Source: an uncultured Candidatus Saccharibacteria bacterium
GTDB taxonomy: Bacteria > Patescibacteriota > Minisyncoccia > Phycocordibacterales > UBA1550
DNA length: 64,000 nt
Assembly (NCBI GenBank): GCA_964457625.1
Contig: CAYWES010000001.1
Coordinates: 17,725-81,724 of the forward strand
Direction: 5' to 3'
In this document: positions 5,668-59,411 of the stretch, in pieces
Layout: each line of letters begins with the position of its first letter
Position numbering within the stretch: the first letter of the stretch is position 1
Translations under genes and position numbers: made by a program
Notes under the pieces: generated by a model
The model's database searches: none
Told to the model about the DNA's origin: nothing
The model's input: only the letters and a program-made list of their open reading frames with translations

Positions 5668-5768
5668 ATATCTTCATAAAGAAGGTATCACGATATTATA
5701 CATAAAAGAGCCGATTAGGGAATAGTGTCATCGTGAGTACACAATACTCTCCGCCCTGCTTATTCTAG

Positions 5769-5849
5769 TACCTGGAGTGGGACTCGAACCCACAAGCCTT
5801 GCGGCGGGAAATTTTAAGTCTCCTGTGTATACCATTCCACCATCCAGGC
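5769..5849 (-). tRNA. tRNA-Leu(TAA)
   Basis: Reverse complement reads GCCTGGATGGTGGAATGGTATACACAGGAGACTTAAAATTTCC...GTGGGTTCGAGTCCCACTCCAGGTA; anticodon loop CTTAAAA; long variable arm; no encoded CCA. Confidence 0.8.
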
Positions 5850-5904
5850 AAGGGAATACTATGTGACCACTCTAGCAGAAAAAAGGGGGCGGGGGAAGAT
5901 TGAG

Positions 5905-5941
5905 CCCAAAGCGGGTCGGGCTTTGCCCGACCCGCTTTGGG
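5905..5941. repeat. 17-bp perfect palindrome hairpin between tRNA-Leu(TAA) and tRNA-Cys
   Basis: CCCAAAGCGGGTCGGGC-TTT-GCCCGACCCGCTTTGGG, preceded by a G-rich run (GGGGGCGGGGG). Confidence 0.85.
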
Positions 5942-5959
5942 TTTACGGGAGTTTTCTTG

Positions 5960-6031
5960 AGGCGTGGGCGAGAATCGAACTCGCGTATAGAGGTTTTGCA
6001 AACGACTGCCTTACCACTTGGCCACCACGCC
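5960..6031 (-). tRNA. tRNA-Cys(GCA), with two central mismatches in the anticodon stem
   Basis: Reverse complement reads GGCGTGGTGGCCAAGTGGTAAGGCAGTCGTTTGCAAAACCTCTATACGCGAGTTCGATTCTCGCCCACGCC+U discriminator. Acceptor and T-arm are perfect and U73 is typical of tRNA-Cys. Anticodon stem GTCGT/ACCTC gives only 3 of 5 pairs. Confidence 0.55.
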
Positions 6032-45925: not shown

Positions 45926-48829
45926 ATGAAAGCATACGACCACAAGGATCTTGAGGGAAAATGGCAAAAAATCTGGGAGGAGACGGGAGTGTATCGCACG
46001 GATGATTCTTCTGAAAAACCAAAACAATTTATTCTCGATATGTTCCCGTATCCATCAGGAGAGGGTCTTCATGTGGGGCATCCTAAGGGATATATTGCGA
46101 CTGACATCTATGCACGCATGAAGCGTATGAGCGGGTTTAATGTACTCCATCCCATGGGGTGGGATGCGTTTGGTCTCCCCGCGGAACAGTTTGCGATTAA
46201 GCACAAAGTACATCCTCGTGTGGCGGTAGAAAAAAATGTTGCTCGCTACAAAGAGCAACTCTCTGTTATTGGTCTTGATTATGATTGGGCACGCGAGATA
46301 AATACGACAGATCCTGCCTTTTATAAGTGGACGCAGTGGATTTTTTTGAAACTGTTGGAAAAAGGTCTTGCCTATGAGTCATATGAACCGATTAACTGGT
46401 GCCCCACGTGTCAAACGGGTCTTGCTAACGAAGATCTTGATGGAGGGAAGTGTGAGCGATGTGATACTCCCGTCGAGAAAAAGCCCATGCGACAATGGGT
46501 ACTCAAAATTACGGAGTACGCAGACCGCATGCTCAAAGACCTTGATCTCCTTAATTGGCCGGACTCTATCAAGGAAGCCCAACGAAATTGGATTGGGAGG
46601 AGTGAAGGAGCGGAAATAGATTTCAATTTGGTATTCAAATTGCATCCAAAACATAACGATTGGCGCGACCCAAAAGACGAAAAACCTGCGCATATTACGG
46701 TATTCACCACGCGTCCCGATACGCTTTTTGGTGCGACATATCTGGTGCTTGCCCCTGAACATCCTTGGGTAGAGGCTTTGTGGAATACCGAACACGACGA
46801 CAGTGTGGGTAACAAAAGTGAAATAGAGGCATATGTGAAGCATGCCAGGGAAAAGACCGATATAGAACGTGCTGACGCGACGAAAGAAAAAACGGGTGTA
46901 AACGTTGAAGGAGTTGTTGCTCTTAATCCCGTGACGAAAGAAGAGATTCCAATATTTGTTGCGGATTATGTGCTTGGAGGGTACGGTACGGGTGCGGTGA
47001 TGGCTGTCCCGGCACATGACGAGCGAGACTTTCTTTTTGCTCAGAAATTTAGCCTGCCTTTCAGGGAGGTTGTCGTGCCTCATAGGGTTGATTATAAAAA
47101 TCCCCCCGTATCAGAAAAAGAAGTTGTTACACGAAAGAATATTCATGGTCTCGTGCGTAATCCAAAAACAGGCAAGATACTTTGTCTCAAGTGGAAAGAA
47201 CATCCTTGGACAACCCTTGTGGTGGGAGGAGTAGAGGATGGTGAGGATATTATTGAAGCGGCGCGGAGAGAAATTCTAGAAGAGACGGGATATGCACACC
47301 TCAGTGAGGGTCGCATCTTGGGAGGAGAAGTACGTGCCGACTACTTTGCAGCACACAAAGATCAAAATAGAATCGCGTACACTAGTCTTGTTGCATTTGA
47401 TCTTCTTGATGAAGAACAGCAAGACATCTCAGCGGACGAACAGAGTAAACATGAAGTCGTTTGGCTTGATGAGAAGGACGTCACAGTGGAATTGATGACC
47501 CACGCAGAAATGGACATCTGGCTTGAAAGAATGAATGGCGCGACGGGGGCATACACTCATTCAGGTGTTCTTGTGCATTCCGCACAATTTAATGGCAAAA
47601 GTTCTGAAGAGGCAAAAAAAGAGATTACAGAGTTCGCAGGTGGTCGTTGGGTGACAAAGTATCGTCTCAAGGAGTGGGTGTTTTCACGTCAGCGCTACTG
47701 GGGTGAGCCTATCCCGGTTATTCATTGTCCGAAGGATGGTGTTGTTCCCGTTCCCGAGAAGGAACTTCCCGTGCTCCTACCTGATGTGACTTCGTACGAA
47801 CCCACAGGAACGGGGGAGTCACCTCTTGCGGCGATTTCAGATTGGGTCAACACGACATGTCCGCAATGTGGTGGTCCGGGCACGCGCGAGACCAATACGA
47901 TGCCTCAGTGGGCGGGATCATCGTGGTATTACCTTCGTTTCATTGACCCAGAAAATAATGAGGCACTCATTGATCCGAAAAAAGAACATATATGGGATCC
48001 AGTTGACCTTTATGTGGGAGGCGATCATGCGGTGCGCCATCTTATCTACGCGCGTTTTTGGCATAAGTTTTTGTTTGACATAGATGTAGTCCACACTCTT
48101 GAGCCGTTTATGAGACTTGAGTTTCTCGGTTTTATTCTTGCTGAAGATGGTCGTAAAATGAGCAAGCGATGGGGAAATGTCATTAATCCCGATGATGTGG
48201 TAAAAACCTATGGTGCTGACACGCTCCGTCTCTATGAAATGTTCATGGGACCCTTTGAGCAAACTATCGCCTGGAATACCGAGAGTATCATTGGACCACG
48301 AAGGTTCCTTGAGCGTGTATGGCGTTTACGAGAGAATGTTTCATCTTCGGTAAAAGATACCGAAACTCTCGAGACGATTCTTCATAAAACAATCAAAAAA
48401 GTAACGGATGATATTGAAGGGTTTGCCTTTAATACCGCGATTTCTTCGCTCATGGTGCTTTCGAATGAAATGGAGCGTGCCAAAGAATTTTCTCCCCAAG
48501 CCTACGAGACATTCCTGAAACTCCTTGCCCCCTTCGCTCCTCATATTACCGAAGAACTTTGGCATGAATTGGGGCACGAGGACTCAATCCACCTTTCTTC
48601 ATGGCCTACCTACGATCCTCAAAAATGCATCGCTACAGAGGTAACAATTGCCATTCAGATAAATGGGAAGGTCCGCGACACTCTTGTTGTGGCGGCAGAT
48701 ATATCCGAAGACGAAGTTCTCCGTATTGCCCTTGAGCGCCCTCTTGTGTCCAAATGGATGGAAGGGAAGAAGCCCGCAAAAACGATCTTTGTTCCCGGGA
48801 AACTTCTCAGTATTGTCTTAGAAAAATAA
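45926..48829 (+). CDS. leuS: leucyl-tRNA synthetase carrying an inserted Nudix-hydrolase-like domain
   Basis: HIGH (HVGHPKGY), Zn motif CPTCQT..CERC, editing-domain block TTRPDTLFGATYLVLAPEHP...GTGAVMAVPAHDERDF, KMSKS (KMSKRWGN). An inserted block of about 150 aa contains the canonical Nudix box GGVEDGEDIIEAARREILEETGY. Confidence 0.9.
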   Translation: MKAYDHKDLEGKWQKIWEETGVYRTDDSSEKPKQFILDMFPYPSGEGLHVGHPKGYIATDIYARMKRMSGFNVLHPMGWDAFGLPAEQFAIKHKVHPRVAVEKNVARYKEQLSVIGLDYDWAREINTTDPAFYKWTQWIFLKLLEKGLAYESYEPINWCPTCQTGLANEDLDGGKCERCDTPVEKKPMRQWVLKITEYADRMLKDLDLLNWPDSIKEAQRNWIGRSEGAEIDFNLVFKLHPKHNDWRDPKDEKPAHITVFTTRPDTLFGATYLVLAPEHPWVEALWNTEHDDSVGNKSEIEAYVKHAREKTDIERADATKEKTGVNVEGVVALNPVTKEEIPIFVADYVLGGYGTGAVMAVPAHDERDFLFAQKFSLPFREVVVPHRVDYKNPPVSEKEVVTRKNIHGLVRNPKTGKILCLKWKEHPWTTLVVGGVEDGEDIIEAARREILEETGYAHLSEGRILGGEVRADYFAAHKDQNRIAYTSLVAFDLLDEEQQDISADEQSKHEVVWLDEKDVTVELMTHAEMDIWLERMNGATGAYTHSGVLVHSAQFNGKSSEEAKKEITEFAGGRWVTKYRLKEWVFSRQRYWGEPIPVIHCPKDGVVPVPEKELPVLLPDVTSYEPTGTGESPLAAISDWVNTTCPQCGGPGTRETNTMPQWAGSSWYYLRFIDPENNEALIDPKKEHIWDPVDLYVGGDHAVRHLIYARFWHKFLFDIDVVHTLEPFMRLEFLGFILAEDGRKMSKRWGNVINPDDVVKTYGADTLRLYEMFMGPFEQTIAWNTESIIGPRRFLERVWRLRENVSSSVKDTETLETILHKTIKKVTDDIEGFAFNTAISSLMVLSNEMERAKEFSPQAYETFLKLLAPFAPHITEELWHELGHEDSIHLSSWPTYDPQKCIATEVTIAIQINGKVRDTLVVAADISEDEVLRIALERPLVSKWMEGKKPAKTIFVPGKLLSIVLEK

Positions 48830-50067: not shown

Positions 50068-51369
50068 ATGGAATTTCTAGAGCACATAGGGCTCATCGAT
50101 CTCTATACGGGGGTCATTGGGTACCTCATTATTTTTATTAAGTGGGCGCCATTTTGGGTGCCCCTGGTACTCCTTGCGTATCTTTGGGGGTTGTGGATGC
50201 ATTATGTCCAGGCGAAGTGGCAGACTGAGGTGAAGTGGATCATGCTTGAGTTGAAGCTTCCCAAAGAGACTCATAAAGGTCCTCTTGCCATGGAGCTTGT
50301 GTTGAATGCGCTCTATCAGACAGGTTCGGGTATCTGGTATGACAAAAAAGTAAAAGGACGCGTCAAGGATAGATTTTCCCTAGAGATGGTTTCTCTGGAA
50401 GGTCAAGTAAAATTTTTTATTCGTACACCCGCCGTACACAAAAATGTAATTGAGGCTCAGCTCTATGCGCAATATCCTGACATAGAGATTTTTGAAGTTC
50501 CCGATTACACGCGCTATGTCGACTACCGAGGAAGAGAAGGAGACTGGTCGTGTGTCGGTATGGATTTTGGCCTCGGAAAGGAAGATGCCTATCCTATAAA
50601 AACGTACATCGATTATGGTCTCGATAAAGAAGGTGTCGACGAGGAATACAAAATTGACCCCCTAAGCTCTGTTATTGAGTATCTTGGATCAGTAGGAAAG
50701 GGCGAGCAAGTCTGGATTCAGATTATTGTACAGGCCGCCACGAAGGCTCACCACTATCCGCACAAAAAGGATGGGTCAATGGGGGACTGGAAGAGTGAGG
50801 GAGAAGCGTTGGTCGACAAACTTACTCAGCGCAAAGAAGAACGCGATGAAGAAGGGAAGGGCGGTCCGCGCACACAGCATATGACAAAGGGTGAGCAAGA
50901 AATTGTCGCTGCCATTGAGCGCAATATCAGCAAGTTTGGTTTTGAGTGCGGGGTCCGAGCGCTCTATGTTTGCAAACGTGATCGTTTTAATCCTTCAAAT
51001 CTCAAGGCAATCGGAGGGCTTTGGCGCGGGTTTAGTACCGCAAATCTAAATGAGTTTAAGTCTACCATTCAGACCTTCGGTGTTGATGCATGGTGGCAAG
51101 ATTATAAAGATGTTCGTATCACGAGCTATCGCAAAGCACAGTTTGAGGCATTCAAGCGTCGGGAGTTTTCATTTGAAGATCAGGTGAGATGGGTTGCAAA
51201 CATCCCCTCTGCCTCGCCAATGGTGATTACGCCGTTCAAACACCCTTTTGTATTGAGCTCTGAAGAGCTTGCAACGATATTCCATCTACCGGGAGGAGTG
51301 GTACAGACGCCAACGTTTGGCCGTCTCTCTTCACGCAAGAGCGAAGCTCCTACCAACTTGCCAATCTAA
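50068..51369 (+). CDS. hypothetical protein with N-terminal TM segment (433 aa)
   Basis: Long ORF with coherent codon usage; no recognisable motif; the ATG lies 7 nt after a TACAAT box. Confidence 0.55.
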   Translation: MEFLEHIGLIDLYTGVIGYLIIFIKWAPFWVPLVLLAYLWGLWMHYVQAKWQTEVKWIMLELKLPKETHKGPLAMELVLNALYQTGSGIWYDKKVKGRVKDRFSLEMVSLEGQVKFFIRTPAVHKNVIEAQLYAQYPDIEIFEVPDYTRYVDYRGREGDWSCVGMDFGLGKEDAYPIKTYIDYGLDKEGVDEEYKIDPLSSVIEYLGSVGKGEQVWIQIIVQAATKAHHYPHKKDGSMGDWKSEGEALVDKLTQRKEERDEEGKGGPRTQHMTKGEQEIVAAIERNISKFGFECGVRALYVCKRDRFNPSNLKAIGGLWRGFSTANLNEFKSTIQTFGVDAWWQDYKDVRITSYRKAQFEAFKRREFSFEDQVRWVANIPSASPMVITPFKHPFVLSSEELATIFHLPGGVVQTPTFGRLSSRKSEAPTNLPI

Positions 51370-51376: not shown

Positions 51377-52399
51377 ATGGAAGAGCTATCCCCTGAATTT
51401 AATAATCCTACAAAGCGGAGCTCGCCATTGTTTGAGTTTTTGGGTATTAAAACACGCATGATGAAAGGGGCATTTTTTGTGGCAGTGGGACTCATTGGTA
51501 TATGTGCATTCTTTTCGTATCTCTTGATAACCCCGCGTCATTTCCCCGAAGGAGAAATGATTATCATTGCAGAGGGTCTCTCTTTGGGTGAAGTGTCTCA
51601 TCTTCTGAAAGAAAAGAAGGTTATTCGTTCCCGCATGCTTTTCGAGGCGTGTATTCTTGGGACGACAGGGGATCGTCATGTCCGCGCGGGGACGTATTTA
51701 CTCACGGAGCCCGAGTCAGTGTGTCGTATCGCCGACCGTATTGCCAGGGGGACGACAGGTCTTTCGGCAATCCGTTTTACCATCCCCGAAGGGTTTACGA
51801 ATCGCGAAATCGCACATACCGCACTCCGCCTCTTAAGAAACTTTGACGAACAGCGTTTTCTTGAAGAAGCAAAGATGTATGAGGGGTTTTTGTTCCCCGA
51901 TACATATTTTTTATCTCCTGACGCCAGTGATGTGAATGTTATTGAAACACTCAGCAAAGAATTTGATAAGAAAATAGAGCCGTTTCTCGAGCGTATTGAG
52001 CGCTCCGCCCACTCTCTTCGCGAGATTGTGATTATGGCGTCTATCCTTGAAAAGGAAGCGCAAACAATCGAAGACCAAAGAATGGTCTCAGGAATTCTTT
52101 GGAAGAGGATTGAAATAAATATGCCACTTCAAGTCGATGCCTCGTTCTTGTACCTGTGGGGCAAGGCTTCTCATGAACTCACACAGGAGGATCTCCGCTT
52201 CGACTCTCTCTACAATACGTACGTTTATCGTGGGCTTCCTCCGGGACCTATTGGCAATCCAGGGCTTAGCGCCATTGAGGCAGCATTAACTCCTGTATCC
52301 TCTCCATATCTTTACTACTTGCACGACAGCAAAGGGGATATTCACTATGCAAGAACATTTGACGAACATAGACAAAACAAAGAAAGACATTTGCGTTGA
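51377..52399 (+). CDS. mltG: endolytic murein transglycosylase MltG (YceG-like)
   Basis: N-terminal TM; family motif LFPDTYF; ATG at 51377. Confidence 0.8.
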   Translation: MEELSPEFNNPTKRSSPLFEFLGIKTRMMKGAFFVAVGLIGICAFFSYLLITPRHFPEGEMIIIAEGLSLGEVSHLLKEKKVIRSRMLFEACILGTTGDRHVRAGTYLLTEPESVCRIADRIARGTTGLSAIRFTIPEGFTNREIAHTALRLLRNFDEQRFLEEAKMYEGFLFPDTYFLSPDASDVNVIETLSKEFDKKIEPFLERIERSAHSLREIVIMASILEKEAQTIEDQRMVSGILWKRIEINMPLQVDASFLYLWGKASHELTQEDLRFDSLYNTYVYRGLPPGPIGNPGLSAIEAALTPVSSPYLYYLHDSKGDIHYARTFDEHRQNKERHLR

Positions 52400-52434
52400 C
52401 GCCCAACACCTTTCCTGCTATACCCTCAGTATCT

Positions 52435-53505
52435 ATGACCGCAACGTCTAAAGGTAGGGTCTATGTCGGCATGTCAGGGGGAGTTGATAGCTCCGTCACC
52501 GCGGCGCTCCTCAAAGAGCAGGGCTACGAAGTCATCGGCGTATTTATGAAGGTGTGGCAACCTGATTTTTTGCCGTGCACATGGGAGGAGGAACGTCTTG
52601 ATGCTATCCGCGTGGCAGCTCATTTGGGTGTTCCTCTCAAAACATGGGATTTTGAAAAGGAATATAGAGAGGAGGTTTTTGAATACATGATTCGTGAGTA
52701 CAAGGCAGGCAGAACACCAAATCCTGATGTCATGTGTAATCGGGAAATAAAATTCGGTGTATTTTTTCGTCGTGCGATGGAGGAGGGTGCTGATGTTGTC
52801 GCGACGGGGCATTACGCGCAGTGTGTGTACAATGAGCACACAGACAAACACGAGCTCCACAAGGGCAATGATCTCGCGAAAGATCAGTCATACTTTCTCT
52901 GGACACTCGGTGAGAAGGAGCTTTCGCGCACACTGTTTCCTGTGGGTGGATTTCAAAAAACAAAGGTACGCAAACTCGCAAAGAAATTTAAGATTCCCGT
53001 TGCGGATAAGAAAGACAGCCAAGGGCTTTGCTTCGTGGGCAAGCTCAATATGAAAGATTTTCTCGCGCACTATATTCCCGAAAAGGAAGGCGAGGTGATC
53101 ACGGAGGAAGGCGAGGTGATCGGTACTCATCGAGGAGTAGCGTTTTATACCTTGGGAGAACGAAGAGGTTTCCTCATTACGAAGAAAACTCCCGAGGAAC
53201 TCCCGTACTATATCGTCGCGAAGGACCTCAAGCGGAATACGCTCACTGTGGCGCACAAAAAGAAAGAAGAAAACACGAGTGAGTATATTACTATCAGCGA
53301 CTGCCTCTTTCGTCGCCCTCCGGAAACGGATAAAGAGTACACCGCACAAGTTCGGTATCATGGAGAACTTTTGTCCTCTCGCGTTGAGTGCCTGGAGGGG
53401 AATCGCGCTCGGGTAATCTTTAGCCATCCGGTAGTGGTTGACCAAGGTCAGTCCATCGTATTATATGAAGGCACTGAGTGTATTGGCGGAGGGGTGCGAG
53501 AATGA
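52435..53505 (+). CDS. mnmA: tRNA-specific 2-thiouridylase
   Basis: PP-loop VGMSGGVDSSV; the ORF-track start is TTG, ATG at 52435. Confidence 0.9.
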   Translation: MTATSKGRVYVGMSGGVDSSVTAALLKEQGYEVIGVFMKVWQPDFLPCTWEEERLDAIRVAAHLGVPLKTWDFEKEYREEVFEYMIREYKAGRTPNPDVMCNREIKFGVFFRRAMEEGADVVATGHYAQCVYNEHTDKHELHKGNDLAKDQSYFLWTLGEKELSRTLFPVGGFQKTKVRKLAKKFKIPVADKKDSQGLCFVGKLNMKDFLAHYIPEKEGEVITEEGEVIGTHRGVAFYTLGERRGFLITKKTPEELPYYIVAKDLKRNTLTVAHKKKEENTSEYITISDCLFRRPPETDKEYTAQVRYHGELLSSRVECLEGNRARVIFSHPVVVDQGQSIVLYEGTECIGGGVRE

Positions 53506-53556: not shown

Positions 53557-54417
53557 ATGGTACAAAAAGATTCTCAAAATATTCCCTGGGTTATAAAGAC
53601 ATCGGGTGTCCGTGAGCAGTTTTCTGTAGCCAAGCTCCGTCGCTCACTTGAACGCTCGGGAGCAGACGAAGCGACTGTTCAGCAAATTCTTGACCATATT
53701 CTCCCGGAAGTTACTGATGGTACGAGGACCTCGCTCATTTACAAACACGCATTCGCATTACTCAAAAAGAATCTGTATCCTGCGGCAGTCCGATATAGTC
53801 TCCGCAAGGCGGTTATGGAACTCGGTCCGAGTGGGTTTCCTTTTGAAATCTATGTCTCAGAAGTTCTCCGCCGCAAAGGGTACACTGCCGAGACAGGCGT
53901 GGTGCTTCCGGGGTTCTGTGTCCTTCATGAGGTTGATATTTACCTCCGAAAAAATGACAAACATATTTTTGCCGAGTGTAAATTTCACAATCAGCAAGGG
54001 ATTAAGGTTGATATAAAAGTGGCACTCTATATTCACGCTCGATTCCTTGATCTTAAAAAAGGTCATGAATCAAAAGAGCAATCGGGAACACGGGATATCC
54101 ACGAAGGGTGGCTCATTACTAACACAAAGATGAGTGCGGATGCGATTCAATATGCAAATTGCGTGGGACTCCGCCTCCTTGCGTGGGATTATCCCGAGAA
54201 AGGAAATCTCCAAGATCTTATTTTAGAGACGGGTGTGCATCCTTTGACGTTCCTTTCTTCGCTTTCATCGCGTAACAAAACAGATCTCCTCGCCAAGGGG
54301 ATCGTTATGTGTCGAGAGCTCAAAGAGAATGAGCAAGCCCTTCGTGATATTGGATTTTCCGAAGGAAAGATAAAAGGCGTCCTCCGTGAGGCAGATCGCG
54401 TATGCCAAGAGTTTTAA
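53557..54417 (+). CDS. ATP-cone domain fused to a PD-(D/E)xK restriction-endonuclease-like (Mrr_cat-type) domain
   Basis: N-terminus VIKTSGVREQFSVAKLRRSLERSGAD.. (ATP-cone). Central FEIYVSEVLRRKGY...LHEVDIYL...AECKF (E..D..ExK nuclease core). Confidence 0.6.
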   Translation: MVQKDSQNIPWVIKTSGVREQFSVAKLRRSLERSGADEATVQQILDHILPEVTDGTRTSLIYKHAFALLKKNLYPAAVRYSLRKAVMELGPSGFPFEIYVSEVLRRKGYTAETGVVLPGFCVLHEVDIYLRKNDKHIFAECKFHNQQGIKVDIKVALYIHARFLDLKKGHESKEQSGTRDIHEGWLITNTKMSADAIQYANCVGLRLLAWDYPEKGNLQDLILETGVHPLTFLSSLSSRNKTDLLAKGIVMCRELKENEQALRDIGFSEGKIKGVLREADRVCQEF

Positions 54418-54446: not shown

Positions 54447-54935
54447 ATGGAACACCTCCTTGCGCTCATCGCTATTCCCGAAGTGGAAATGTTTCTCAAG
54501 CTTTTTACCGCTCTCTTTTTGGGCATGTCTCTTGGGCTAGAACGTGCATTAGCCCAAAAAACAGCCGGCATGCGTACCTACGGGCTTGTCTCAATGGGTG
54601 CGGCACTATTTATTATTATTGCGGTTACTGCATTGAAGCATTTTGATGAGTTTACCGCGCTTCACCAGTCTATCCGTATGGCCGCTCAGATTGTGACAGG
54701 TATCGGGTTTATCGGAGCAGGTCTCATATTCTTTAAGGGGGAAACAGTAAGCGGGGTGACTACTGCCGCAGGTATTTGGGTTGCTGCTGGGATAGGTATG
54801 GCTGTCGGGTACGGACTTTTTGGGTTGGCACTCATGGCGACACTTTTGGTACTTATGGCATTTACACTCTTTTGGTTTGCAGAGGAGCGCATCAGAGACA
54901 CCTTTCTCCATCGAGATCATCACGACACAGCCTAG
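54447..54935 (+). CDS. mgtC: MgtC/SapB family membrane protein
   Basis: Family signature LALIAIPE...GLERALAQKTAGMRTYGLVSMGAALF; ATG 7 nt after TGcTATAAT. Confidence 0.8.
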   Translation: MEHLLALIAIPEVEMFLKLFTALFLGMSLGLERALAQKTAGMRTYGLVSMGAALFIIIAVTALKHFDEFTALHQSIRMAAQIVTGIGFIGAGLIFFKGETVSGVTTAAGIWVAAGIGMAVGYGLFGLALMATLLVLMAFTLFWFAEERIRDTFLHRDHHDTA

Positions 54936-54970: not shown

Positions 54971-56758
54971 ATGAATTCACGAGAATTACGATCACGATTT
55001 TTAAAATTTTTTGAGAAGAGGGGACATGCCGTCATCCCTTCAGCTTCTTTGGTACCGGAGAATGACCCTTCGGTGCTTTTTAATACTGCGGGAATGCAAC
55101 CTCTCGTCCCGTATCTTTTGGGAGCACCGCATCCGGATGGCACGCGCCTCGTGAATGCACAAAAGTGTGTTCGCACGCAAGATATCGACGAGATTGGCGA
55201 CAGCACCCATGCCACATTTTTTGAAATGCTTGGAAATTGGTCTCTTGGAGATTATTTCAAAGAGGATGCGCTTCGCTGGAGCTTTGAATTCCTCACTTCA
55301 AAAGAAGAGGGGCTCGGGCTTGATCCTCGTCGTCTGTATGTGACGGTATTTGCGGGTGATGAAAACGCTCCTCGCGATGAAGAATCAGCGACCATCTGGA
55401 GAAGTATCTTTGTGGAGCACAACATTCCGGGAGAGCGTATCTATTTCCTCAGCGCAAAATCTAATTGGTGGAGCCCCGGAGACAATGGACCATGTGGGCC
55501 CGACTCAGAAATGTTTTATGATGTGAGCGGAAAGCACACCGAAGGAATGACACTTGAAGAGTACCTCGCTGCTGATAACGCACAGGATGTGGTTGAGATC
55601 TGGAACGACGTATTCATGGAATACAAAAAAGAGAACGGTGTTGTCGTCGGGAAGCTCAGCCGAAAGAATGTCGATACGGGTTCGGGACTTGAGCGCGTAC
55701 TCATGACGGTGCAGGGCAAGGATAATATTTTTGATACGGATTTATTTACGCCCATTTTTGACGCCATTCGTGCACATACGGGCGGAGAAATTCGCGATAT
55801 GCGTGCGGCACGTATTGTTGCGGATCACATGCGCGCGTCAACGATGATGATTACGGATGGAGTGCGTCCTTCAAACACGGATCAAGGATATATCGTGCGC
55901 AGGCTTTTGCGTCGCGCGGTGCGATACGCTGATCTCTTGGGACTCCCTCCGCATACACTCTCCAAGATTGTAGAGGTCGTAGTCTCAATATATGATGAGG
56001 CATACCCGGAAGTCTCTGTTCGAAAAAAAGAGACCCAAGAAGCGATTCAGAAAGAAGAGGAGAAGTTTAGAAAAACACTCGAGCGAGGAATGAAAGAGTT
56101 TGCGCGCCTTGCTGAAGAAGGAGCTATTTCTGCCGAGGGAGCATTTCAACTTTTTTCCACGCATGGCTTCCCGCTTGAAATGACTGAGGAGCTCGCCTCT
56201 GAGCGGGGAATTGTGGTAGATAGAGAAGGATTTCAAGAAGCGTTCAAAAAGCACCAAGAGCTTTCTCGCGCAGGAGCTGAACAGAAGTTCAAAGGAGGCC
56301 TTGCTGATACAAGTGTTATGTCGACACGGTATCACACTACGACACATCTTCTCCATCAGGCACTCCGCACAGTCCTTGGAGAAGGAGCAATACAGAAGGG
56401 TTCAAATATTACCGCAGAGCGCTTGAGGTTTGACTTTGCTCATGGTGCAAAAATGACCGATGAAGAAAAGCGTGCCGTTGAAGATTTGGTGAATAAAAAG
56501 ATTTCAGAGGCGCTTCCAGTCTTTTATGAGGATATATCTTTCGAAGAAGCACAAAAACGTGGGGCGATAGGGCTCTTTGGTGAAAAATACGGAGATACCG
56601 TACGCGTATATCAAGTGGGGGAGGGAGATTCTCGGTACAGTCTTGAGTTTTGTGGAGGACCTCATGTGGAAAACACAAGCGAGCTCGGTCACTTCAAGAT
56701 TGTAAAAGAAGAGGCCGTTGCCCAAGGAGTTCGTCGTATAAAAGCGGTACTTGAATAA
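54971..56758 (+). CDS. alaS: alanyl-tRNA synthetase (truncated form lacking the C-terminal C-Ala domain)
   Basis: Class II catalytic core, editing-domain HxxxH (HTTTHLLHQAL) and CGGPHV; 595 aa. Confidence 0.9.
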   Translation: MNSRELRSRFLKFFEKRGHAVIPSASLVPENDPSVLFNTAGMQPLVPYLLGAPHPDGTRLVNAQKCVRTQDIDEIGDSTHATFFEMLGNWSLGDYFKEDALRWSFEFLTSKEEGLGLDPRRLYVTVFAGDENAPRDEESATIWRSIFVEHNIPGERIYFLSAKSNWWSPGDNGPCGPDSEMFYDVSGKHTEGMTLEEYLAADNAQDVVEIWNDVFMEYKKENGVVVGKLSRKNVDTGSGLERVLMTVQGKDNIFDTDLFTPIFDAIRAHTGGEIRDMRAARIVADHMRASTMMITDGVRPSNTDQGYIVRRLLRRAVRYADLLGLPPHTLSKIVEVVVSIYDEAYPEVSVRKKETQEAIQKEEEKFRKTLERGMKEFARLAEEGAISAEGAFQLFSTHGFPLEMTEELASERGIVVDREGFQEAFKKHQELSRAGAEQKFKGGLADTSVMSTRYHTTTHLLHQALRTVLGEGAIQKGSNITAERLRFDFAHGAKMTDEEKRAVEDLVNKKISEALPVFYEDISFEEAQKRGAIGLFGEKYGDTVRVYQVGEGDSRYSLEFCGGPHVENTSELGHFKIVKEEAVAQGVRRIKAVLE

Positions 56759-56848: not shown

Positions 56849-58030
56849 ATGGCATTTTCTTTTTCATTGCGTTCAAAACATAAAGAAAAAACTATTCTCG
56901 TCGTTGATATTGGTTCAGCGAGTGTGGGTGTTGCGCTCGTCGCTCTTTCTCCTAAAAAAAATCCCCACATCCTTCTTTCAGAGAGGGAAGAGATTCCTTC
57001 CCAACCCGAGCTTTCCGCCCCAAAACTCCGACGTGCTATGGAGGGTGCGTTGGGGCGAGCCTTGCGAACTATTGGGAAAAACCTCAGGAAGCATCATTAT
57101 TCTCTCCCTGCGCGTGTTGTGTGTACGCTTTCCGCGCCGTGGTCTCTCGAAAAAACACGCCACATTATTACCGAATCCGAATCCCTCTTTGTGGTCACAG
57201 AACGCATGGTCGATGATATCTTAGAAGTAGATATGGGGAATCTCAAACAGGAGCTTTCCGGTACTCTGCCCACAGAAGATATTTTTGTCTTTGAGCGCCG
57301 CGTGTTGGGAGCTTCGCTTGATGGGTATCAAGTGAGCTCTCCCTTTGGACGCAAAACAACACGCCTCGACACCATAGCGCTTTTCGGAGTGTCTTCGAAA
57401 AAGGTTATGGATGGGATTGTCTCTTATATTGGGAGAGTATTTCATACGAAACAGATAGAGTGGAGCTCTTTTTCTCTTGCCTCGTTCAGTGCGATACGAG
57501 ATATTTTTCCTCACGAAAAAGATTTTCTTCTCCTCGATATTACAGGGGAGGCGACCACGGTGTCTCTTATCAAAAACGACCTTTTAGACCAAAGCCTCTT
57601 CTTCCCTCGGGGTAGAAATACGCTTATTCGAGAACTTTCTCTAGGAATGAATGTTCCCCATGAAGCGGCTGGAAGCCTGTTCAAAATGTATCTTCGTGGT
57701 ACACTAAATGAGCAGAAGCATGAACAGGTAAAGCGTATTTTGAAAGAATCGAGCCAAGGGTGGGTGAGTCGTCTTGAAAAGACGCTCACGGCGCTCCACA
57801 AGGAAGGAAACCTTCCCCACACGGTGTTTTTTAACGCAGACAAAGAAGTAGCTCAGTTCTACCATGAGATATTGAGCGAAATTGGTACGGGGTTTGGGGG
57901 AGCGTTCTTTTTCCCTCGATATGTGGACCCACAAGTGTTTCGAGGATTTATAACATCAGAAGAAGGTATATCTCGCGATCCATTTTTGGTCATCGGAGCA
58001 TTATTAGCAAGTAAATTGAATACACAATAA
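56849..58030 (+). CDS. actin-fold (ASKHA) ATPase-like protein, FtsA/PilM-like
   Basis: Phosphate-1-like ILVVDIGSASVGVAL and phosphate-2-like LLLDITGEATTVSLI; C-terminal amphipathic tail. Confidence 0.5.
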   Translation: MAFSFSLRSKHKEKTILVVDIGSASVGVALVALSPKKNPHILLSEREEIPSQPELSAPKLRRAMEGALGRALRTIGKNLRKHHYSLPARVVCTLSAPWSLEKTRHIITESESLFVVTERMVDDILEVDMGNLKQELSGTLPTEDIFVFERRVLGASLDGYQVSSPFGRKTTRLDTIALFGVSSKKVMDGIVSYIGRVFHTKQIEWSSFSLASFSAIRDIFPHEKDFLLLDITGEATTVSLIKNDLLDQSLFFPRGRNTLIRELSLGMNVPHEAAGSLFKMYLRGTLNEQKHEQVKRILKESSQGWVSRLEKTLTALHKEGNLPHTVFFNADKEVAQFYHEILSEIGTGFGGAFFFPRYVDPQVFRGFITSEEGISRDPFLVIGALLASKLNTQ

Positions 58031-58037: not shown

Positions 58038-59411
58038 ATGGATAACATCAAGCGAAAAGCAACAGCACATAAAAGTGCCCCTAGCCCTGAACACAGCACG
58101 ACACATCATCGTGTACCCCACAAAAATGATTCGCATGACGGTGCAGACAAGGTTTCTCCGCATGATCGTATTCAAAGCAGCCCCTTTTTCCAAAAGAGCT
58201 CCTCTCCTGTTTCCGTCGTTCCTCCTGTTCGTCACCATCGCGCAAAAAAGAAGAAAATCCCCAGCGGTAAAGTATTCTTCTTCTTTGTCCTCCTCGCTCT
58301 CTTGTTTGCAGGGGTATTTTTTGGGGCAGGGCGTTTTGCAAGCGCTACGGTCCGCCTCACGCCAGTCGTCGAGACTGCTCCTCTCGATAAAAATATAAGC
58401 GCTTCTCTTGAAGGAGAGGGTAGCGGACTTGCATTTCATGTAATGACGTTCTCGGAGGAGAAGATTAAAGATGTTCCTGCTACCATTGAACAAGATGTAC
58501 AACGGAAGGCATCAGGAACGATTGTCATCTACAATGCTCACAACGGAAACGCACAGCGACTTATCGTAAATACGCGCTTTGAAACTCCTGATGGAAAAAT
58601 ATTCCGTATCGGTGAATCTGTCGAGGTGCCGGGCGCAGTCATGTCCGAAGGCAAGGTGGTGACACCGGGCGCTCTTGAGGTGACGGTATATGCAGATGCT
58701 CCCGGAAGAGAATACAACATCGGTCTCTCAGACTTTACCATTCCTGGATTTAAGGGGGATCCGCGCTACACAACCTTCACCGCTCGCTCCAAGAGCGACA
58801 GTCCCATGACAGGAGGTTTTTCTGGGGTGGTCAAAGTTCCTTCTCCTGAAGCTATCGCTATCGCACAGAGAGAGTTAAAGGACGATCTTAAAATCCTCGC
58901 AATCGAGAAAGCTCGCGCGCAAGTTCCTGAAGGGACAATATTTTTCCCGGGAAGCGTACTCCTTAAATACGAAGAGATTCCTGTTGATTTCACAAACAAC
59001 GATAGAGCAGCTGTGGGTATCCGCGCAACAACATCCGTCTTTTTCTTCAATTCCAAAGACTTGGTAAGTATGTTGGCGTCCGAAGCACTTCCGCACTATG
59101 ACCCAAGTGCTTCTTTCTCGCTCCTTAAAAGAGAAAACCTTACGTTCACATTTCTTGATTCTGTTGAGCAGGTAGTCGTTGAAGATATCGACGATATTCG
59201 CTTCAACATACGAGGGGAGGGCGTATTTATAGGGCTCCTCAACGTCGAAGAAATGAGTAATACTCTTGCAGGGAAACAAAAAACCGCATTTGCTGAAATC
59301 GTCAACACCGACCCTCTCATCGAAAAAGCTGAACTCTCCATATTCCCTCCATGGCGCTCTGCGTTCCCTGAAGATTCTCGCAAAATTGCCATTGATATTA
59401 TTAATCAGTAG
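58038..59411 (+). CDS. bitopic membrane protein: basic His/Ser-rich cytoplasmic N-terminus, one TM, large external domain
   Basis: 457 aa; TM VFFFFVLLALLFAGVFFG; no known motif; immediately follows the actin-like gene. Confidence 0.5.
   Translation: MDNIKRKATAHKSAPSPEHSTTHHRVPHKNDSHDGADKVSPHDRIQSSPFFQKSSSPVSVVPPVRHHRAKKKKIPSGKVFFFFVLLALLFAGVFFGAGRFASATVRLTPVVETAPLDKNISASLEGEGSGLAFHVMTFSEEKIKDVPATIEQDVQRKASGTIVIYNAHNGNAQRLIVNTRFETPDGKIFRIGESVEVPGAVMSEGKVVTPGALEVTVYADAPGREYNIGLSDFTIPGFKGDPRYTTFTARSKSDSPMTGGFSGVVKVPSPEAIAIAQRELKDDLKILAIEKARAQVPEGTIFFPGSVLLKYEEIPVDFTNNDRAAVGIRATTSVFFFNSKDLVSMLASEALPHYDPSASFSLLKRENLTFTFLDSVEQVVVEDIDDIRFNIRGEGVFIGLLNVEEMSNTLAGKQKTAFAEIVNTDPLIEKAELSIFPPWRSAFPEDSRKIAIDIINQ

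What the first reader, a model, noticed from the sequence alone, without database searches (positions are those of the whole stretch)
53557..54417. ATP-cone regulatory domain fused to a PD-(D/E)xK (Mrr-type) nuclease-like domain
The N-terminal ~90 aa match the ATP-cone, the nucleotide-sensing domain of NrdR and ribonucleotide reductases. Residues ~95-150 carry an E..D..ExK nuclease-like core (FEIYVSE...LHEVDIYL...AECKF). This architecture would couple nucleotide-pool sensing to DNA cleavage or DNA binding. It is a plausible defence or stress module, and it is encoded between mnmA and mgtC.
Basis: partly seen in the sequence, partly recalled or inferred. Interest (0 to 1): 0.5.

Follow-up and report, generated by a model that had tools for sequence, protein, structure and literature searches.

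The report
ATP-cone fused to AF1548-type nuclease
This gene encodes a real but unstudied three-part protein: an ATP/dATP-sensing ATP-cone, an intact Mrr/AF1548-type nuclease and a small helical tail; it is a conserved chromosomal gene in many bacteria, more likely tied to nucleic-acid turnover than to phage defence.

Summary
ORF 53557..54417 (+, 286 aa) has three domains: an ATP-cone (aa ~11-88), a PD-(D/E)xK nuclease of the Mrr_cat/AF1548 type (aa ~93-211) and an AF1548-like C-terminal helical domain (aa ~212-286).

- **Sequence evidence.** The three Pfam hits on this sequence alone are below threshold. Residues 100-282 match the solved structure AF1548 (1Y88) at E 6.5e-32. Among 144 diverse homologues, 132 hit ATP-cone and 140 hit Mrr_cat.
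- **Structure.** An AF2 model (pLDDT 95) superposes on the E. coli NrdR ATP-cone at 1.7 Å.
- **Conserved residues.** Catalytic E97, D127, E140 and K142 are conserved in 143-144 of 144 sequences. The NrdR inner-site nucleotide contacts are also conserved.
- **Distribution.** The family is large (≥597 species; Patescibacteria, Bacteroidota, Chlamydiota) and no paper in the searched library describes it.
- **Against defence.** It sits in conserved core synteny, has no PADLOC hit, no phage copies, and occurs on 2 of 72,556 plasmids.
- **Neighbours.** Recurrent, tightly linked neighbours are a β-CASP nuclease, a thymidine/AMP-phosphorylase-family protein, PRPP synthetase, a Cas4-like nuclease and an HD 5'-deoxynucleotidase-like protein.

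My best reading is an adenine-nucleotide-gated nuclease feeding nucleic-acid turnover or salvage. That function is inferred, not shown. Interest is moderate.

The parts
53557..54417 (+). Whole gene: 286-aa protein made of an ATP-cone, an AF1548/Mrr_cat nuclease and an AF1548-like C-terminal domain (stop codon included).
   Evidence: ORF. An identical protein, P0001, is in public data. 2184 homologues. 438 clusters at 50% identity score below E 1e-30, and 144 of the 150 best are 260-320 aa. AF2 model pLDDT 95.1, pTM 0.90.
53587..53820 (+). ATP-cone domain (aa ~11-88): a β-hairpin (11-13, 19-21) followed by helices. Predicted adenine-nucleotide site: V12, K14, T15, E20, F22, K26, L27, T58, I61.
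   Evidence: Pfam ATP-cone is sub-threshold on this sequence but hits 132/144 family members. The profile matches NrdR at E 0.002. Foldseek to E. coli NrdR gives 81 columns, 1.7 Å and 25% identity. Conservation in 144 sequences: K14 143, G17 143, F22 135, K26 142. The residues map onto the NrdR contacts listed in bioRxiv 10.1101/2025.03.28.645925.
53821..53847 (+). Near-invariant junction L-G-P-S-G-F-P-F-E (aa 89-97). It joins the last ATP-cone helix directly to the nuclease helix that carries catalytic E97.
   Evidence: G93, F96 and E97 are 144/144, G90 is 143/144 and P91 is 140/144. The model shows a helix starting at aa 95. That this junction transmits nucleotide binding to the active site is my inference.
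53833..54189 (+). PD-(D/E)xK nuclease domain of the Mrr_cat/AF1548 type (aa ~93-211). Catalytic codons: E97 (53845-53847), D127 (53935-53937), E140 (53974-53976), K142 (53980-53982). Other near-invariant residues: H124, E125, H144, R162, D165 and T188-N189-T190.
   Evidence: 1Y88 match at E 6.5e-32 and profile E 8.9e-54. D127, E140 and K142 correspond to AF1548 D38, E51 and K53, which were predicted catalytic in PMC1821046 and PMC1874628. Foldseek also finds MspJI, Can2, Cdn1 and R2 endonuclease domains.
54190..54414 (+). AF1548-like C-terminal helical domain (aa 212-286), probably a helix-hairpin-helix-like nucleic-acid-binding module.
   Evidence: Pfam PF22357 at E 1.6e-4 here, and 90/144 in the family. 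It is covered by the 1Y88 alignment. The domain-only model (pLDDT 74.6) best matches RadA/Rad51 N-terminal HhH, Hel308 domain 5 and Pol β at TM ~0.6, but with E > 1, which is not significant.
52396..53505 (+). Context only: mnmA (tRNA 2-thiouridylase), the upstream neighbour; 51-nt gap to X.
   Evidence: Pfam tRNA_Me_trans at E 2.8e-77. A gene of the MnmA/YceG cluster lies within two genes upstream in 26 of 31 Patescibacteria-type loci.
54447..54935 (+). Context only: mgtC-family membrane protein, the downstream neighbour; 29-nt gap. No terminator-like site lies in the gap.
   Evidence: Pfam MgtC at E 2.2e-32. Terminator and promoter scan. MgtC is at +1 or +2 in 10 of 31 Patescibacteria-type loci; in others the slot holds a Cas4-like protein (8) or an HD protein (7).

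Best explanation
**Shown.** The gene encodes a three-domain protein. It has an N-terminal ATP-cone with an intact adenine-nucleotide pocket. A near-invariant nine-residue junction (aa 89-97) joins this to an AF1548/Mrr_cat PD-(D/E)xK nuclease domain with a complete E-D-ExK catalytic set. A small AF1548-like helical domain follows. It is a vertically conserved chromosomal gene belonging to a large bacterial family.

**Inferred.** The ATP-cone reads adenylate or deoxyadenylate status (ATP against dATP, or ATP against its absence). As in RNR and NrdR, I expect nucleotide binding to change oligomeric state or domain packing and so switch the nuclease on or off. The nuclease would make the first cuts in nucleic acid, most likely DNA given the Mrr_cat fold and the HhH-like tail. 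Exonucleases and nucleotide-processing enzymes encoded next to it in many genomes would then take over. Those neighbours are a β-CASP or Cas4-like nuclease, then an HD 5'-deoxynucleotidase-like protein, or a thymidine/AMP-phosphorylase-family protein plus PRPP synthetase.

On this reading it is a nucleotide-status-gated gatekeeper of nucleic-acid turnover or salvage, and not a restriction or defence enzyme.

The confidence of 0.5 is for the whole statement. For the architecture and intact active site alone it is about 0.95. For the salvage/turnover role it is about 0.4.
For: **Architecture.**
- 1Y88 match at E 6.5e-32.
- Family-wide Pfam hits: 132, 140 and 90 of 144.
- The profile finds the ATP-cones of NrdR and NrdD.
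- AF2 model with pLDDT 95.1 and pTM 0.90.
- Foldseek: 1Y88 at TM 0.81, NrdR ATP-cone at 1.7 Å over 81 columns.

**Active site.**
- E97 and D127 are 144/144; E140 and K142 are 143/144 at 35-55% overall identity.
- They correspond to AF1548 D38, E51 and K53, which superpose on type II restriction enzyme catalytic residues.

**Nucleotide pocket.** The E. coli NrdR contacts V51, K53, S54, E59, F61, K65, L66, S105 and I108 align with V12, K14, T15, E20, F22, K26, L27, T58 and I61. K14, G17, F22 and K26 are conserved in 135-143 of 144. The ATP-cone is about as conserved as the other two domains: 38% against 46% and 34% mean identity to the query.

**Coupling.** The junction is near-invariant.

**Core gene, not mobile.**
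- Synteny is identical across relatives at 65-70% identity.
- No PADLOC hit.
- 0 of 50,697 phage records and 2 of 72,556 plasmids.

**Functional association.**
- A β-CASP nuclease is at +1 in 16 of 49 non-Patescibacteria-type loci, and 14 of those 16 junctions lie between -29 and +28 nt.
- The four-gene string X, MBL-fold hydrolase, thymidine-phosphorylase family, ribose-phosphate pyrophosphokinase is conserved between Pontibacter (Bacteroidota) and Criblamydia (Chlamydiota). Junctions abut or overlap in Criblamydia and are 4-11 nt in Pontibacter.
- In Patescibacteria-type loci, a Cas4-like PDDEXK_1 nuclease is at +1/+2 in 8 of 31 loci, an HD_3/YfbR-like 5'-deoxynucleotidase-like protein at +1/+2 in 7 of 31, and a UDG within four genes downstream in 10 of 31. 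The Cas4-like and HD junctions are mostly a few nt.

**Background.** Some CPR genomes lack nucleotide biosynthesis, and CPR genomes with RubisCO encode an archaeal-type AMP/nucleoside pathway (PMC5113843).
Against: - There is no biochemical evidence for any member. AF1548 itself is a structural-genomics protein of unknown function.
- In this window the gene is not next to any nucleotide-processing gene. Its neighbours are mnmA and mgtC, and conserved synteny among housekeeping genes says little about function.
- The salvage operon is seen in orthologues only about 42-45% identical, and only in a minority of loci: β-CASP 16/49, phosphorylase 9/49, PRPP synthetase 7/49.
- β-CASP enzymes of the aCPSF1 type are usually RNases, so the substrate could be RNA.
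- The outer-site gatekeeper Tyr of NrdR (Y131) aligns with a variable position (K84 here; R, K or Q in the family). ATP/dATP discrimination as in NrdR therefore cannot be assumed.
- The direction of regulation is unknown.
- How an unrestrained DNase would spare the cell's own chromosome is unexplained.
- The HhH-like assignment of the tail is not statistically significant.
Confidence: 0.5

Rival explanations
1. It is a DNA repair or recombination nuclease. On this reading it is a structure-specific endonuclease, analogous to Hjc or to the XPF/Mus81 arrangement of a nuclease followed by HhH motifs. The ATP-cone would tie its activity to nucleotide availability.
For: - The best (non-significant) structural neighbours of the C-terminal domain are HhH modules of RadA/Rad51, Hel308 and Pol β.
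- Some family members also hit Hjc (14/144), UPF0102 (17/144), HHH_5 (2) and RAD51D_N (1).
- In Patescibacteria the downstream genes often include a family-4-type UDG (10/31) and a Cas4-like PDDEXK_1 exonuclease (8/31).
- It is a conserved single-copy core gene.
Against: - The Bacteroidota/Chlamydiota operon pairs it with a nucleoside/AMP phosphorylase and PRPP synthetase, and in Criblamydia it lies among fermentation genes. Those are catabolic, not repair, partners.
- No recA, ruv, uvr or ligase gene appeared among the recurrent clusters I annotated in the 87 loci.
- The HhH-like fold hits have E > 1.
Confidence: 0.2
2. It is an anti-phage or anti-plasmid defence nuclease. It would act like a type IV/Mrr-like restriction enzyme or an abortive-infection effector, triggered when infection perturbs ATP or dATP pools.
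For: - The Mrr_cat fold is shared with Mrr-type restriction enzymes.
- Foldseek neighbours include defence nucleases: MspJI, Can2, Cdn1.
- NCBI names some members 'restriction endonuclease'.
- Sensor-plus-PD-(D/E)xK nucleases are a known defence design.
- Two copies lie on large plasmids.
Against: - No PADLOC family matches.
- There is no Mrr_N or other modified-DNA reader domain.
- The gene occupies the same position in a housekeeping array across relatives at 65-76% identity, which is the opposite of a variable defence island.
- It is absent from 50,697 phage records.
- No methyltransferase or known defence gene appeared among the recurrent neighbour clusters I annotated.
- The plasmid copies sit in metabolic operons.
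Confidence: 0.12
3. It is an NrdR-like, nucleotide-responsive DNA-binding regulator. The nuclease fold and tail would serve only as a DNA-binding module that does not cleave.
For: - The ATP-cone is closest in sequence and structure to that of NrdR.
- NrdR works through ATP/dATP-dependent oligomer changes that control DNA binding.
- PD-(D/E)xK folds have been recruited as non-catalytic DNA binders; 12/144 members weakly hit Pfam's 'inactive restriction endonuclease' family NA-iREase1.
Against: - All four catalytic residues are conserved in 143-144 of 144 diverse members, which is not expected for a purely binding role.
- There is no zinc ribbon; the first Cys is residue 121.
- The NrdR model TIGR00244 scores 15 bits against a cut-off of 124.65.
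- No other ATP-cone protein (RNR or NrdR) lies near X in 86 of 87 loci. The one exception is an ATP-cone-glucoamylase fusion.
Confidence: 0.08

Closest known systems
AF1548 from Archaeoglobus fulgidus (PDB 1Y88; Pfam Mrr_cat plus AF1548-like_C; the Mrr_cat/COG1787 group of the PD-(D/E)xK superfamily)
   Same: It is a direct homologue over both the nuclease and the C-terminal helical domain: E 6.5e-32, 33% identity, TM 0.81. The catalytic D, E and K are the same (AF1548 D38, E51, K53 correspond to D127, E140, K142). The TNT...A motif after the fourth strand is also shared.
   Different: AF1548 has no ATP-cone; the chain starts about 10 residues before the nuclease helix. At the position of the near-invariant H124 it has Gln. 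It has never been characterised biochemically, so it gives a fold but no function.
NrdR, the ATP/dATP-sensing repressor of ribonucleotide reductase genes
   Same: It has the closest ATP-cone in both sequence and structure (profile E 0.002; 1.7 Å over 81 columns). Like E. coli NrdR, this family has a small residue (A, S or T) where classic ATP-cones have Arg after the conserved Lys. The inner-site contacts are conserved. The mode of action is likely shared too: nucleotide-dependent change of oligomer or conformation (inferred).
   Different: There is no N-terminal zinc ribbon, and the NrdR model is far below its cut-off. The output domain is a catalytically intact nuclease, not a DNA-binding finger. 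The outer-site Tyr131 is not conserved. There is no genomic link to RNR genes.
ATP-cone of ribonucleotide reductases (NrdA, NrdD, NrdJ)
   Same: It is the same domain placed at the N-terminus of an enzyme as an allosteric on/off switch. The NrdD ATP-cone is found at E 0.018 and E. coli NrdA at E 0.44. Foldseek also hits 8vhp, 2xav and 5im3.
   Different: The regulated enzyme is a phosphodiesterase and not a reductase. Whether dATP inhibits and ATP activates is unknown.
Mrr, the type IV modification-dependent restriction endonuclease
   Same: The catalytic domain belongs to the same Pfam family, Mrr_cat, with the same E...D...ExK core.
   Different: It lacks the N-terminal winged-helix reader of modified DNA. 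It has an ATP-cone and an HhH-like tail instead. It sits in core chromosomal synteny and not in a defence island.
Can2/Card1 and Cdn1, ligand-gated PD-(D/E)xK nucleases of type III CRISPR and related signalling systems
   Same: The design is the same: a nucleotide-derived-ligand sensor domain fused to a PD-(D/E)xK nuclease. They appear among the Foldseek hits to the nuclease domain (8bao, 7bdv, 9u49).
   Different: Their sensor is a CARF-type domain that binds cyclic oligoadenylates made by a defence system. Here the sensor is an ATP-cone, which reads ordinary cellular ATP or dATP. There is no CRISPR or CBASS context.
XPF/Mus81/Hef structure-specific nucleases
   Same: The order of a restriction-endonuclease-like nuclease domain followed by a C-terminal HhH-type DNA-binding module is analogous. 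The comparison rests on my own knowledge of that family. The HhH-like fold of the tail here is only weakly supported.
   Different: There is no sequence relationship to ERCC4 (no Pfam hit). The protein is much smaller. Those families have no ATP-cone.

Membership tests
ATP-cone (Pfam PF03477) | Profile match at or above the curated gathering score | tested here: inconclusive
   This sequence scores 19.7 bits against a cut-off of 25.8, E 1.3e-3, covering only aa 12-54. At the family level, 132/144 representatives match at E ≤ 0.01, with a best E of 2.9e-11. The family profile finds NrdR at E 0.002 and NrdD at E 0.018.
ATP-cone (Pfam PF03477) | Fold: N-terminal β-hairpin lid followed by a helical bundle of about 80-90 residues | tested here: met
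   The AF2 model has strands at 11-13 and 19-21 and helices at 24-33, 38-51, 58-72, 74-80 and 82-87. It superposes on the E. coli NrdR ATP-cone over 81 columns at 1.7 Å rmsd with probability 1.00.
ATP-cone (Pfam PF03477) | Conserved nucleotide-contacting residues (hairpin Lys, Glu, Phe; helix-1 Lys; hydrophobic adenine pocket) | tested here: met
   V12, K14, T15, E20, F22, K26, L27, T58 and I61 align with NrdR V51, K53, S54, E59, F61, K65, L66, S105 and I108. Family conservation in 144 sequences: K14 143, G17 143, F22 135 (plus 8 Tyr), K26 142, E20 100. The outer-site Tyr is not conserved.
ATP-cone (Pfam PF03477) | Actual binding of ATP or dATP with an allosteric effect | not testable with these tools
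   This needs ITC or DSF with nucleotides, and activity or oligomer assays.
PD-(D/E)xK nuclease, Mrr_cat family (PF04471) / AF1548 group | Profile or sequence homology to family members | tested here: met
   Mrr_cat on this sequence alone is just below its cut-off (19.3 against 21 bits). AF1548, which Steczkiewicz et al. 2012 place in the Mrr_cat group, matches at E 6.5e-32. 140/144 relatives hit Mrr_cat.
PD-(D/E)xK nuclease, Mrr_cat family (PF04471) / AF1548 group | Catalytic signature: Glu on helix 1, Asp on strand 2, (D/E)xK on strand 3 | tested here: met
   E97 and D127 are 144/144; E140 and K142 are 143/144. In the model they fall on helix 95-106 and on strands 123-132 and 135-142. They correspond to AF1548 D38, E51 and K53.
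PD-(D/E)xK nuclease, Mrr_cat family (PF04471) / AF1548 group | Restriction-endonuclease-like α/β core fold | tested here: met
   Foldseek gives TM 0.81 to 1Y88, plus hits to MspJI, Can2, Cdn1, R2 endonuclease domains and XisH.
PD-(D/E)xK nuclease, Mrr_cat family (PF04471) / AF1548 group | Metal-dependent phosphodiester cleavage | not testable with these tools
   No member of the AF1548 group has been assayed, according to the papers found.
Mrr-type (type IV) restriction enzyme | N-terminal winged-helix domain that reads modified DNA, plus a defence-island or mobile context | tested here: not met
   There is no Mrr_N or other reader domain; the N-terminus is an ATP-cone. The gene is in core synteny. 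No PADLOC hit. Absent from phages.
NrdR | N-terminal four-Cys zinc ribbon, match to the equivalog model, and linkage to RNR regulation | tested here: not met
   TIGR00244 scores 15 bits against a cut-off of 124.65. The first Cys is residue 121. No RNR or NrdR is found near X in the 87 loci.
Known anti-phage defence systems (PADLOC-DB v2) | Match to any defence-protein model | tested here: not met
   0 families even at E ≤ 10.
AF1548-like C-terminal domain (PF22357) as an HhH-type DNA-binding module | Homology to the AF1548 tail, and an HhH-like fold | tested here: inconclusive
   Homology to the AF1548 tail is clear (covered by the E 6.5e-32 alignment; 90/144 Pfam hits). The HhH-like fold is only suggested. 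The best neighbours are RadA/Rad51 N-terminal domain, Hel308 domain 5 and Pol β at TM ~0.6, but with E ≥ 1.9. HHH_5 and RAD51D_N hits occur in 3/144 members.

The most novel reading that the evidence does not exclude
This family is an ATP/dATP-gated DNase (or RNase) that acts as the committed first step of a previously unrecognised bacterial pathway. The pathway would run from nucleic acid to nucleotides to ribose phosphate. In Bacteroidota and Chlamydiota it would work as the operon X, β-CASP nuclease, AMP/thymidine-phosphorylase-family enzyme, PRPP synthetase, set within energy-stress islands. In Patescibacteria, some lineages of which cannot make nucleotides, it would be a core housekeeping valve. 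That valve would decide, from the adenylate or deoxyadenylate pool, when scavenged or own nucleic acid is broken down. It would make the ATP-cone a general energy or nucleotide-status switch for catabolic hydrolases. A sister fusion of the same ATP-cone subtype to a putative glucoamylase sits in one such island.
Probability: 0.3. Interest if true: 0.7.

Novelty: new variant of a known kind. Interest (0 to 1): 0.45.

Why it matters
ATP-cones are understood almost entirely through ribonucleotide reductases and their repressor NrdR. A large family (≥597 species) in which the same sensor sits directly on an intact nuclease would extend ATP/dATP allostery to nucleic-acid cleavage.

The family is a syntenic core gene in many Patescibacteria. 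The physiology of those organisms is thought to depend on scavenged nucleotides. In Bacteroidota and Chlamydiota it heads an operon with a second nuclease, a nucleoside/AMP phosphorylase and PRPP synthetase.

If the gating is real, it gives a testable entry point into how small-genome symbionts and stressed free-living bacteria decide when to break down nucleic acid. It would also give the 20-year-old orphan structure AF1548 a functional context.

The caveat is that the domain architecture is already visible in automated annotation ('ATP cone domain-containing protein'). What is new is the interpretation, not the detection.

Tried and rejected
- **PADLOC scan.** No hit, so no support for a known defence system.
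- **NCBIfam.** Only noise-level NrdR and RecX hits. The RecX_HTH1 Pfam hit (E 0.025) is rejected as a chance match to the helical part of the ATP-cone.
- **Literature searches.** I searched 'AF1548', '1Y88', 'ATP-cone' with restriction endonuclease, nuclease and endonuclease, 'ATP cone domain-containing protein', and the Bacteroidota gene set. No paper describes the fusion or the operon. They yielded only fold-level predictions for AF1548.
- **Genome scan with the 144-sequence alignment.** This failed because the alignment was too diverse. I repeated it with 25 sequences.
- **Promoter and terminator scan of 52300-55100.** No sigma-70-like site and no convincing intergenic terminator. This is uninformative for Patescibacteria, and only weakly suggests co-transcription with the neighbours.
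- **Search of the window for a second ATP-cone protein** (NrdR or RNR) with the family's N-terminal profile. None found.
- **Domain-only model of the tail.** Lower confidence (pLDDT 74.6) and Foldseek hits with E > 1. I therefore report the HhH assignment only as suggestive.
- **afdb50 fold library.** Not available, so I could not survey UniProt-annotated structural neighbours.
- **Rfam scan of the window.** Only tRNAs; nothing relevant to this gene.
- **The MgtC link.** MgtC is the neighbour in only 10 of 31 Patescibacteria-type loci and is replaced by other genes elsewhere. I do not treat it as a functional partner.
Full report
**1. The observation.**

The window has an ORF at exactly 53557..54417 on the + strand (ATG start, 286 aa, stop included). 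The stop-to-stop frame opens at 53548, so this ATG is the only available start. Homologues align from residue ~6-12 onward.

It lies 51 nt after mnmA and 29 nt before an mgtC-family gene. YceG/MltG lies further upstream and a short AlaRS further downstream, and all are on the same strand.

The correct numbering is E97 (GFPFE), D127 (HEVD) and E140-C-K142 (AECKF), which I checked codon by codon.

**2. Are the domains real?**

On this one sequence, Pfam gives three co-linear hits, each just below its gathering score:

| Domain | Residues | E-value | Bits / cut-off |
|---|---|---|---|
| ATP-cone | 12-54 | 1.3e-3 | 19.7 / 25.8 |
| Mrr_cat | 93-207 | 1.3e-3 | 19.3 / 21 |
| AF1548-like_C | 229-282 | 1.6e-4 | 22.1 / 23.9 |

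Stronger evidence removes the doubt:
- Residues 100-282 match the solved structure of Archaeoglobus fulgidus AF1548 (PDB 1Y88) at E 6.5e-32.
- I aligned the query with 143 representatives of 50%-identity clusters, at 35-55% identity to it (alignment A1).
- Scanning every member of A1 gave Mrr_cat in 140/144, ATP-cone in 132/144 (best E 2.9e-11) and AF1548-like_C in 90/144.
- The A1 profile finds 1Y88 at E 8.9e-54, and with its N-terminal positions it finds the ATP-cones of E. coli NrdR (E 0.002) and Prevotella NrdD (E 0.018).
- An AlphaFold2 model built from A1 is very confident (mean pLDDT 95.1, pTM 0.90).
- Foldseek against the PDB returns 1Y88 first (TM 0.81, 33% identity). The E. coli NrdR ATP-cone follows (81 columns, 1.7 Å, 25% identity). 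After those come PD-(D/E)xK nucleases: MspJI, Can2, Cdn1 and R2 endonuclease domains.

**3. Are the functional residues intact?**

*Nuclease.* Two independent papers identified D38, E51 and K53 of AF1548 as the PD-(D/E)xK catalytic residues, by alignment and by superposition on type II restriction enzymes (PMC1821046; PMC1874628). With the 13-residue offset of the PDB chain, they correspond to D127, E140 and K142 here. E97 is the usual helix-1 glutamate.
- In the 144 diverse sequences, E97 and D127 are invariant, and E140 and K142 are 143/144.
- H124, E125, H144, R162, D165 and T188-N189-T190 are also near-invariant.

*ATP-cone.* The E. coli NrdR structure paper lists the inner-site contacts as K53, E59 and K65 over the adenine. 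The hydrophobic pocket is V51, F61, L66 and I108, and S54 and S105 contact the γ-phosphate (bioRxiv 10.1101/2025.03.28.645925).
- In the HMM alignment these contacts are V12, K14, T15, E20, F22, K26, L27, T58 and I61 of this protein.
- In the family, K14 is 143/144, G17 143, F22 135 (plus 8 Tyr), K26 142, and T58 is 128 (plus 15 Ser).
- The small residue after the Lys (Thr here; mostly A or S in the family) replaces the Arg of classic 'KRDG' cones. E. coli NrdR has Ser at the same position, so this does not count against nucleotide binding.
- The outer-site gatekeeper Tyr131 aligns with a variable position (K84). A second, dATP-discriminating site like NrdR's cannot be assumed.

*Conservation and coupling.* All three domains are similarly conserved: mean identity to the query is 38%, 46% and 34%. 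The segment joining the cone to the catalytic helix, L-G-P-S-G-F-P-F-E, is almost invariant. Together with the high pTM, this suggests a fixed, tightly coupled arrangement.

**4. The C-terminal domain.**

It is homologous to the tail of AF1548. A domain-only model (pLDDT 74.6) is most similar to the helix-hairpin-helix N-terminal domain of RadA/Rad51, to Hel308 domain 5 and to Pol β. TM is ~0.60-0.63 and rmsd 1.7-2.7 Å over 55-60 columns, but E-values are ≥ 1.9. A few family members hit HHH_5 or RAD51D_N. I treat it as a probable, unproven nucleic-acid-binding module.

**5. Distribution.**

- The word-indexed search found 2184 homologues. The top 120 are all full-length at 64-76% identity. Sources name them 'ATP cone domain-containing protein', 'restriction endonuclease', 'ATPase' or hypothetical, from Yonathbacteria, Nomurabacteria, Parcubacteria and Minisyncoccia.
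- The exhaustive search of 1.84 billion cluster representatives found 1131 clusters at E ≤ 1e-3 and 438 at E ≤ 1e-30. Of the best 150, 144 are 260-320 aa with the match spanning all three domains, and only 4 are shorter than 240 aa.
These are Patescibacteria of several classes, many cultured Bacteroidota (Pontibacter, Tenacibaculum, Cyclobacterium, Flagellimonas and others) and Parachlamydiales.

This is a large family with a fixed architecture. It is known to automated annotation, but none of my literature searches found a paper describing it.

**6. Genomic context.**

*(a) Close relatives (65-70% identity).* All share the array LeuRS, sigma-70, DUF8128, YceG, MnmA, X, MgtC, AlaRS, often continuing to IF-1 and S13. 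This is a core chromosomal neighbourhood.

*(b) The 80 species-level loci.* I called ORFs, clustered them by BLASTP and annotated the recurrent clusters. In 31 Patescibacteria-type loci:
- A gene of the MnmA/YceG cluster lies within two genes upstream in 26.
- The downstream slot varies: MgtC (10), a Cas4-like PDDEXK_1 nuclease (8), or an HD_3/YfbR-like 5'-deoxynucleotidase-like protein (7).
- This is often followed by a UDG-superfamily glycosylase (10) and then AlaRS.
- The X to Cas4-like and X to HD junctions are mostly within a few nucleotides.

*(c) The other 49 loci (mostly Bacteroidota).*
- A β-CASP MBL-fold nuclease (aCPSF1/Cas14-like) is the next gene in 16, and 14 of those 16 junctions lie between -29 and +28 nt.
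- An archaeal-type thymidine/AMP-phosphorylase-family protein occurs in 9 and a PRK07199-type ribose-phosphate diphosphokinase in 7.
- Universal stress proteins (10), P-type ATPases (13), type II GAPDH (7), a D-2-hydroxyacid dehydrogenase and an AAA_28 protein also recur.

*(d) RefSeq annotation.* It shows the same four-gene string in Pontibacter actiniarum and in Criblamydia sequanensis, a different phylum. The string is ATP-cone protein, MBL-fold metallo-hydrolase, thymidine-phosphorylase-family protein, ribose-phosphate pyrophosphokinase. Junctions abut or overlap in Criblamydia and are 4-11 nt in Pontibacter. In Criblamydia it lies among phosphoketolase, glycogen phosphorylase and acetate kinase genes.

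*(e) Mobility.* There are no matches in 50,697 phage records and only those two in 72,556 plasmids. There is no PADLOC hit.

*(f) Other ATP-cone proteins.* None lies near X in the window or in 86 of 87 loci. The single exception is an ATP-cone of the same subtype fused to a putative glucoamylase, two genes downstream of X in a Halalkalibaculum locus.

**7. Interpretation.**

*Shown.*
- A three-domain protein with an intact nucleotide pocket and an intact nuclease active site.
- Conserved across at least three phyla.
- Chromosomal and syntenic in Patescibacteria.
- Tightly linked, probably in operons, with other nucleases and nucleotide-processing enzymes in many genomes.

*Inferred.*
- The ATP-cone senses ATP and/or dATP and switches the nuclease, probably through oligomer or domain rearrangement as in RNR and NrdR.
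- The enzyme makes the initial cuts that exonucleases (β-CASP, Cas4-like) and nucleotide-processing enzymes then follow.
- The Mrr_cat fold, the HhH-like tail, and the deoxynucleotidase-like, UDG and thymidine-phosphorylase-family neighbours favour DNA as substrate. The aCPSF1-like β-CASP partner leaves RNA open.
- For Patescibacteria this fits published inferences. Some CPR genomes lack nucleotide biosynthesis, and CPR genomes with RubisCO encode an archaeal-type AMP/nucleoside pathway (PMC5113843).
- In this particular window, though, no such partner is adjacent.

I put about 0.95 on the architecture and intact sites, and about 0.4 on the turnover/salvage role.

**8. Rivals.**

- **Repair or recombination nuclease (0.2).** This fits the HhH-like tail and the UDG and Cas4-like neighbours. 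It does not fit the catabolic operon.
- **Defence nuclease (0.12).** This fits the Mrr_cat fold and the sensor-plus-nuclease design. Core synteny, absence from phages and from PADLOC, and the lack of a modified-DNA reader domain all contradict it.
- **NrdR-like regulator with a non-cleaving nuclease fold (0.08).** The invariant catalytic residues, the missing zinc ribbon and the missing RNR linkage contradict it.

**9. Comparison with known families.**

- The protein is a member of the AF1548/Mrr_cat group of PD-(D/E)xK enzymes, and it carries a genuine ATP-cone.
- It is not an NrdR: there is no zinc ribbon, and it scores 15 bits against 124.65.
- It is not a type IV Mrr restriction enzyme in the strict sense: there is no reader domain and no defence context.
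- In design it resembles ligand-gated PD-(D/E)xK nucleases such as Can2/Card1, but its sensor reads ordinary cellular adenine nucleotides.

**10. Verdict.**

The feature is real and correctly recognised. The architecture is already visible in automated annotation, but no functional study turned up in the searched literature.

The defence reading is not supported. A nucleotide-status-gated nuclease in nucleic-acid turnover is the best current hypothesis.

- Novelty: a new variant of known kinds (ATP-cone allostery, and sensor-gated PD-(D/E)xK nucleases).
- Interest: moderate, 0.45.
- It would rise to about 0.7 if the gating and the pathway role were demonstrated.

Noticed in passing
window 45926..48829 (+): The leucyl-tRNA synthetase (967 aa) carries a NUDIX hydrolase domain inserted at aa 405-529, just after the editing domain (PF00293, E 1.4e-12, above its cut-off). 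The same insertion is recorded for the LeuRS of related Parcubacteria loci.
   Followed up: partly
window 54971..56758 (+): The alanyl-tRNA synthetase is short (595 aa). It has only the catalytic tRNA-synt_2c domain and the tRNA_SAD domain, with no match C-terminal to tRNA_SAD. Relatives are 584-626 aa.
   Followed up: no
L021 6184..7713 (Halalkalibaculum sp. DA3122, NZ_JBINJF010000034.1): A second protein carries the same ATP-cone subtype (VTKASGEQEPFNEAKL; PF03477 at 26.6 bits, above its cut-off). It is fused to a putative glucoamylase domain (PF10091, E 1.4e-85) and lies two genes downstream of the nuclease orthologue. This hints that this ATP-cone subtype gates several catabolic hydrolases. 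It is a single case.
   Followed up: partly
L088 1972..6597 (Pontibacter actiniarum plasmid NZ_CP021236.1) and L089 6995..11602 (Criblamydia sequanensis plasmid NZ_LK031773.1): A four-gene string is conserved across two phyla: ATP-cone nuclease, MBL-fold (β-CASP) hydrolase, thymidine-phosphorylase-family protein, ribose-phosphate pyrophosphokinase. Junctions abut or overlap in Criblamydia and are 4-11 nt in Pontibacter. In Criblamydia it is flanked by phosphoketolase, glgP and acetate kinase genes. I found no paper describing it.
   Followed up: partly
window 53917..54162 (codons of C121, H124, H144, C202): Two Cys and two His in the nuclease domain are near-invariant across the family (C121 in 136/144, H124 in 138, H144 in 130, C202 at ≥90%). 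They are not part of the classical PD-(D/E)xK motif. AF1548 has Gln at the H124 position. A metal site is possible, but I could not check the geometry.
   Followed up: no
window 50068..51369 (+), 56849..58030 (+) and 58038..59411 (+): Three conserved genes of unknown function travel with this neighbourhood in Patescibacteria. One is a DUF8128 protein (433 aa) upstream of YceG. The other two are ORFs without significant Pfam hits (393 and 457 aa) after AlaRS; the first starts with an actin/ASKHA-like 'VVDIGSAS' motif.
   Followed up: no
window 3767..6031: A cluster of five tRNA genes (Leu-CAG, Leu-TAG, Lys-CTT, Leu-TAA, Cys-GCA) lies on both strands. Three further tRNAs are at 14917, 16681 and 21856. 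This is ordinary and is noted only for orientation.
   Followed up: no
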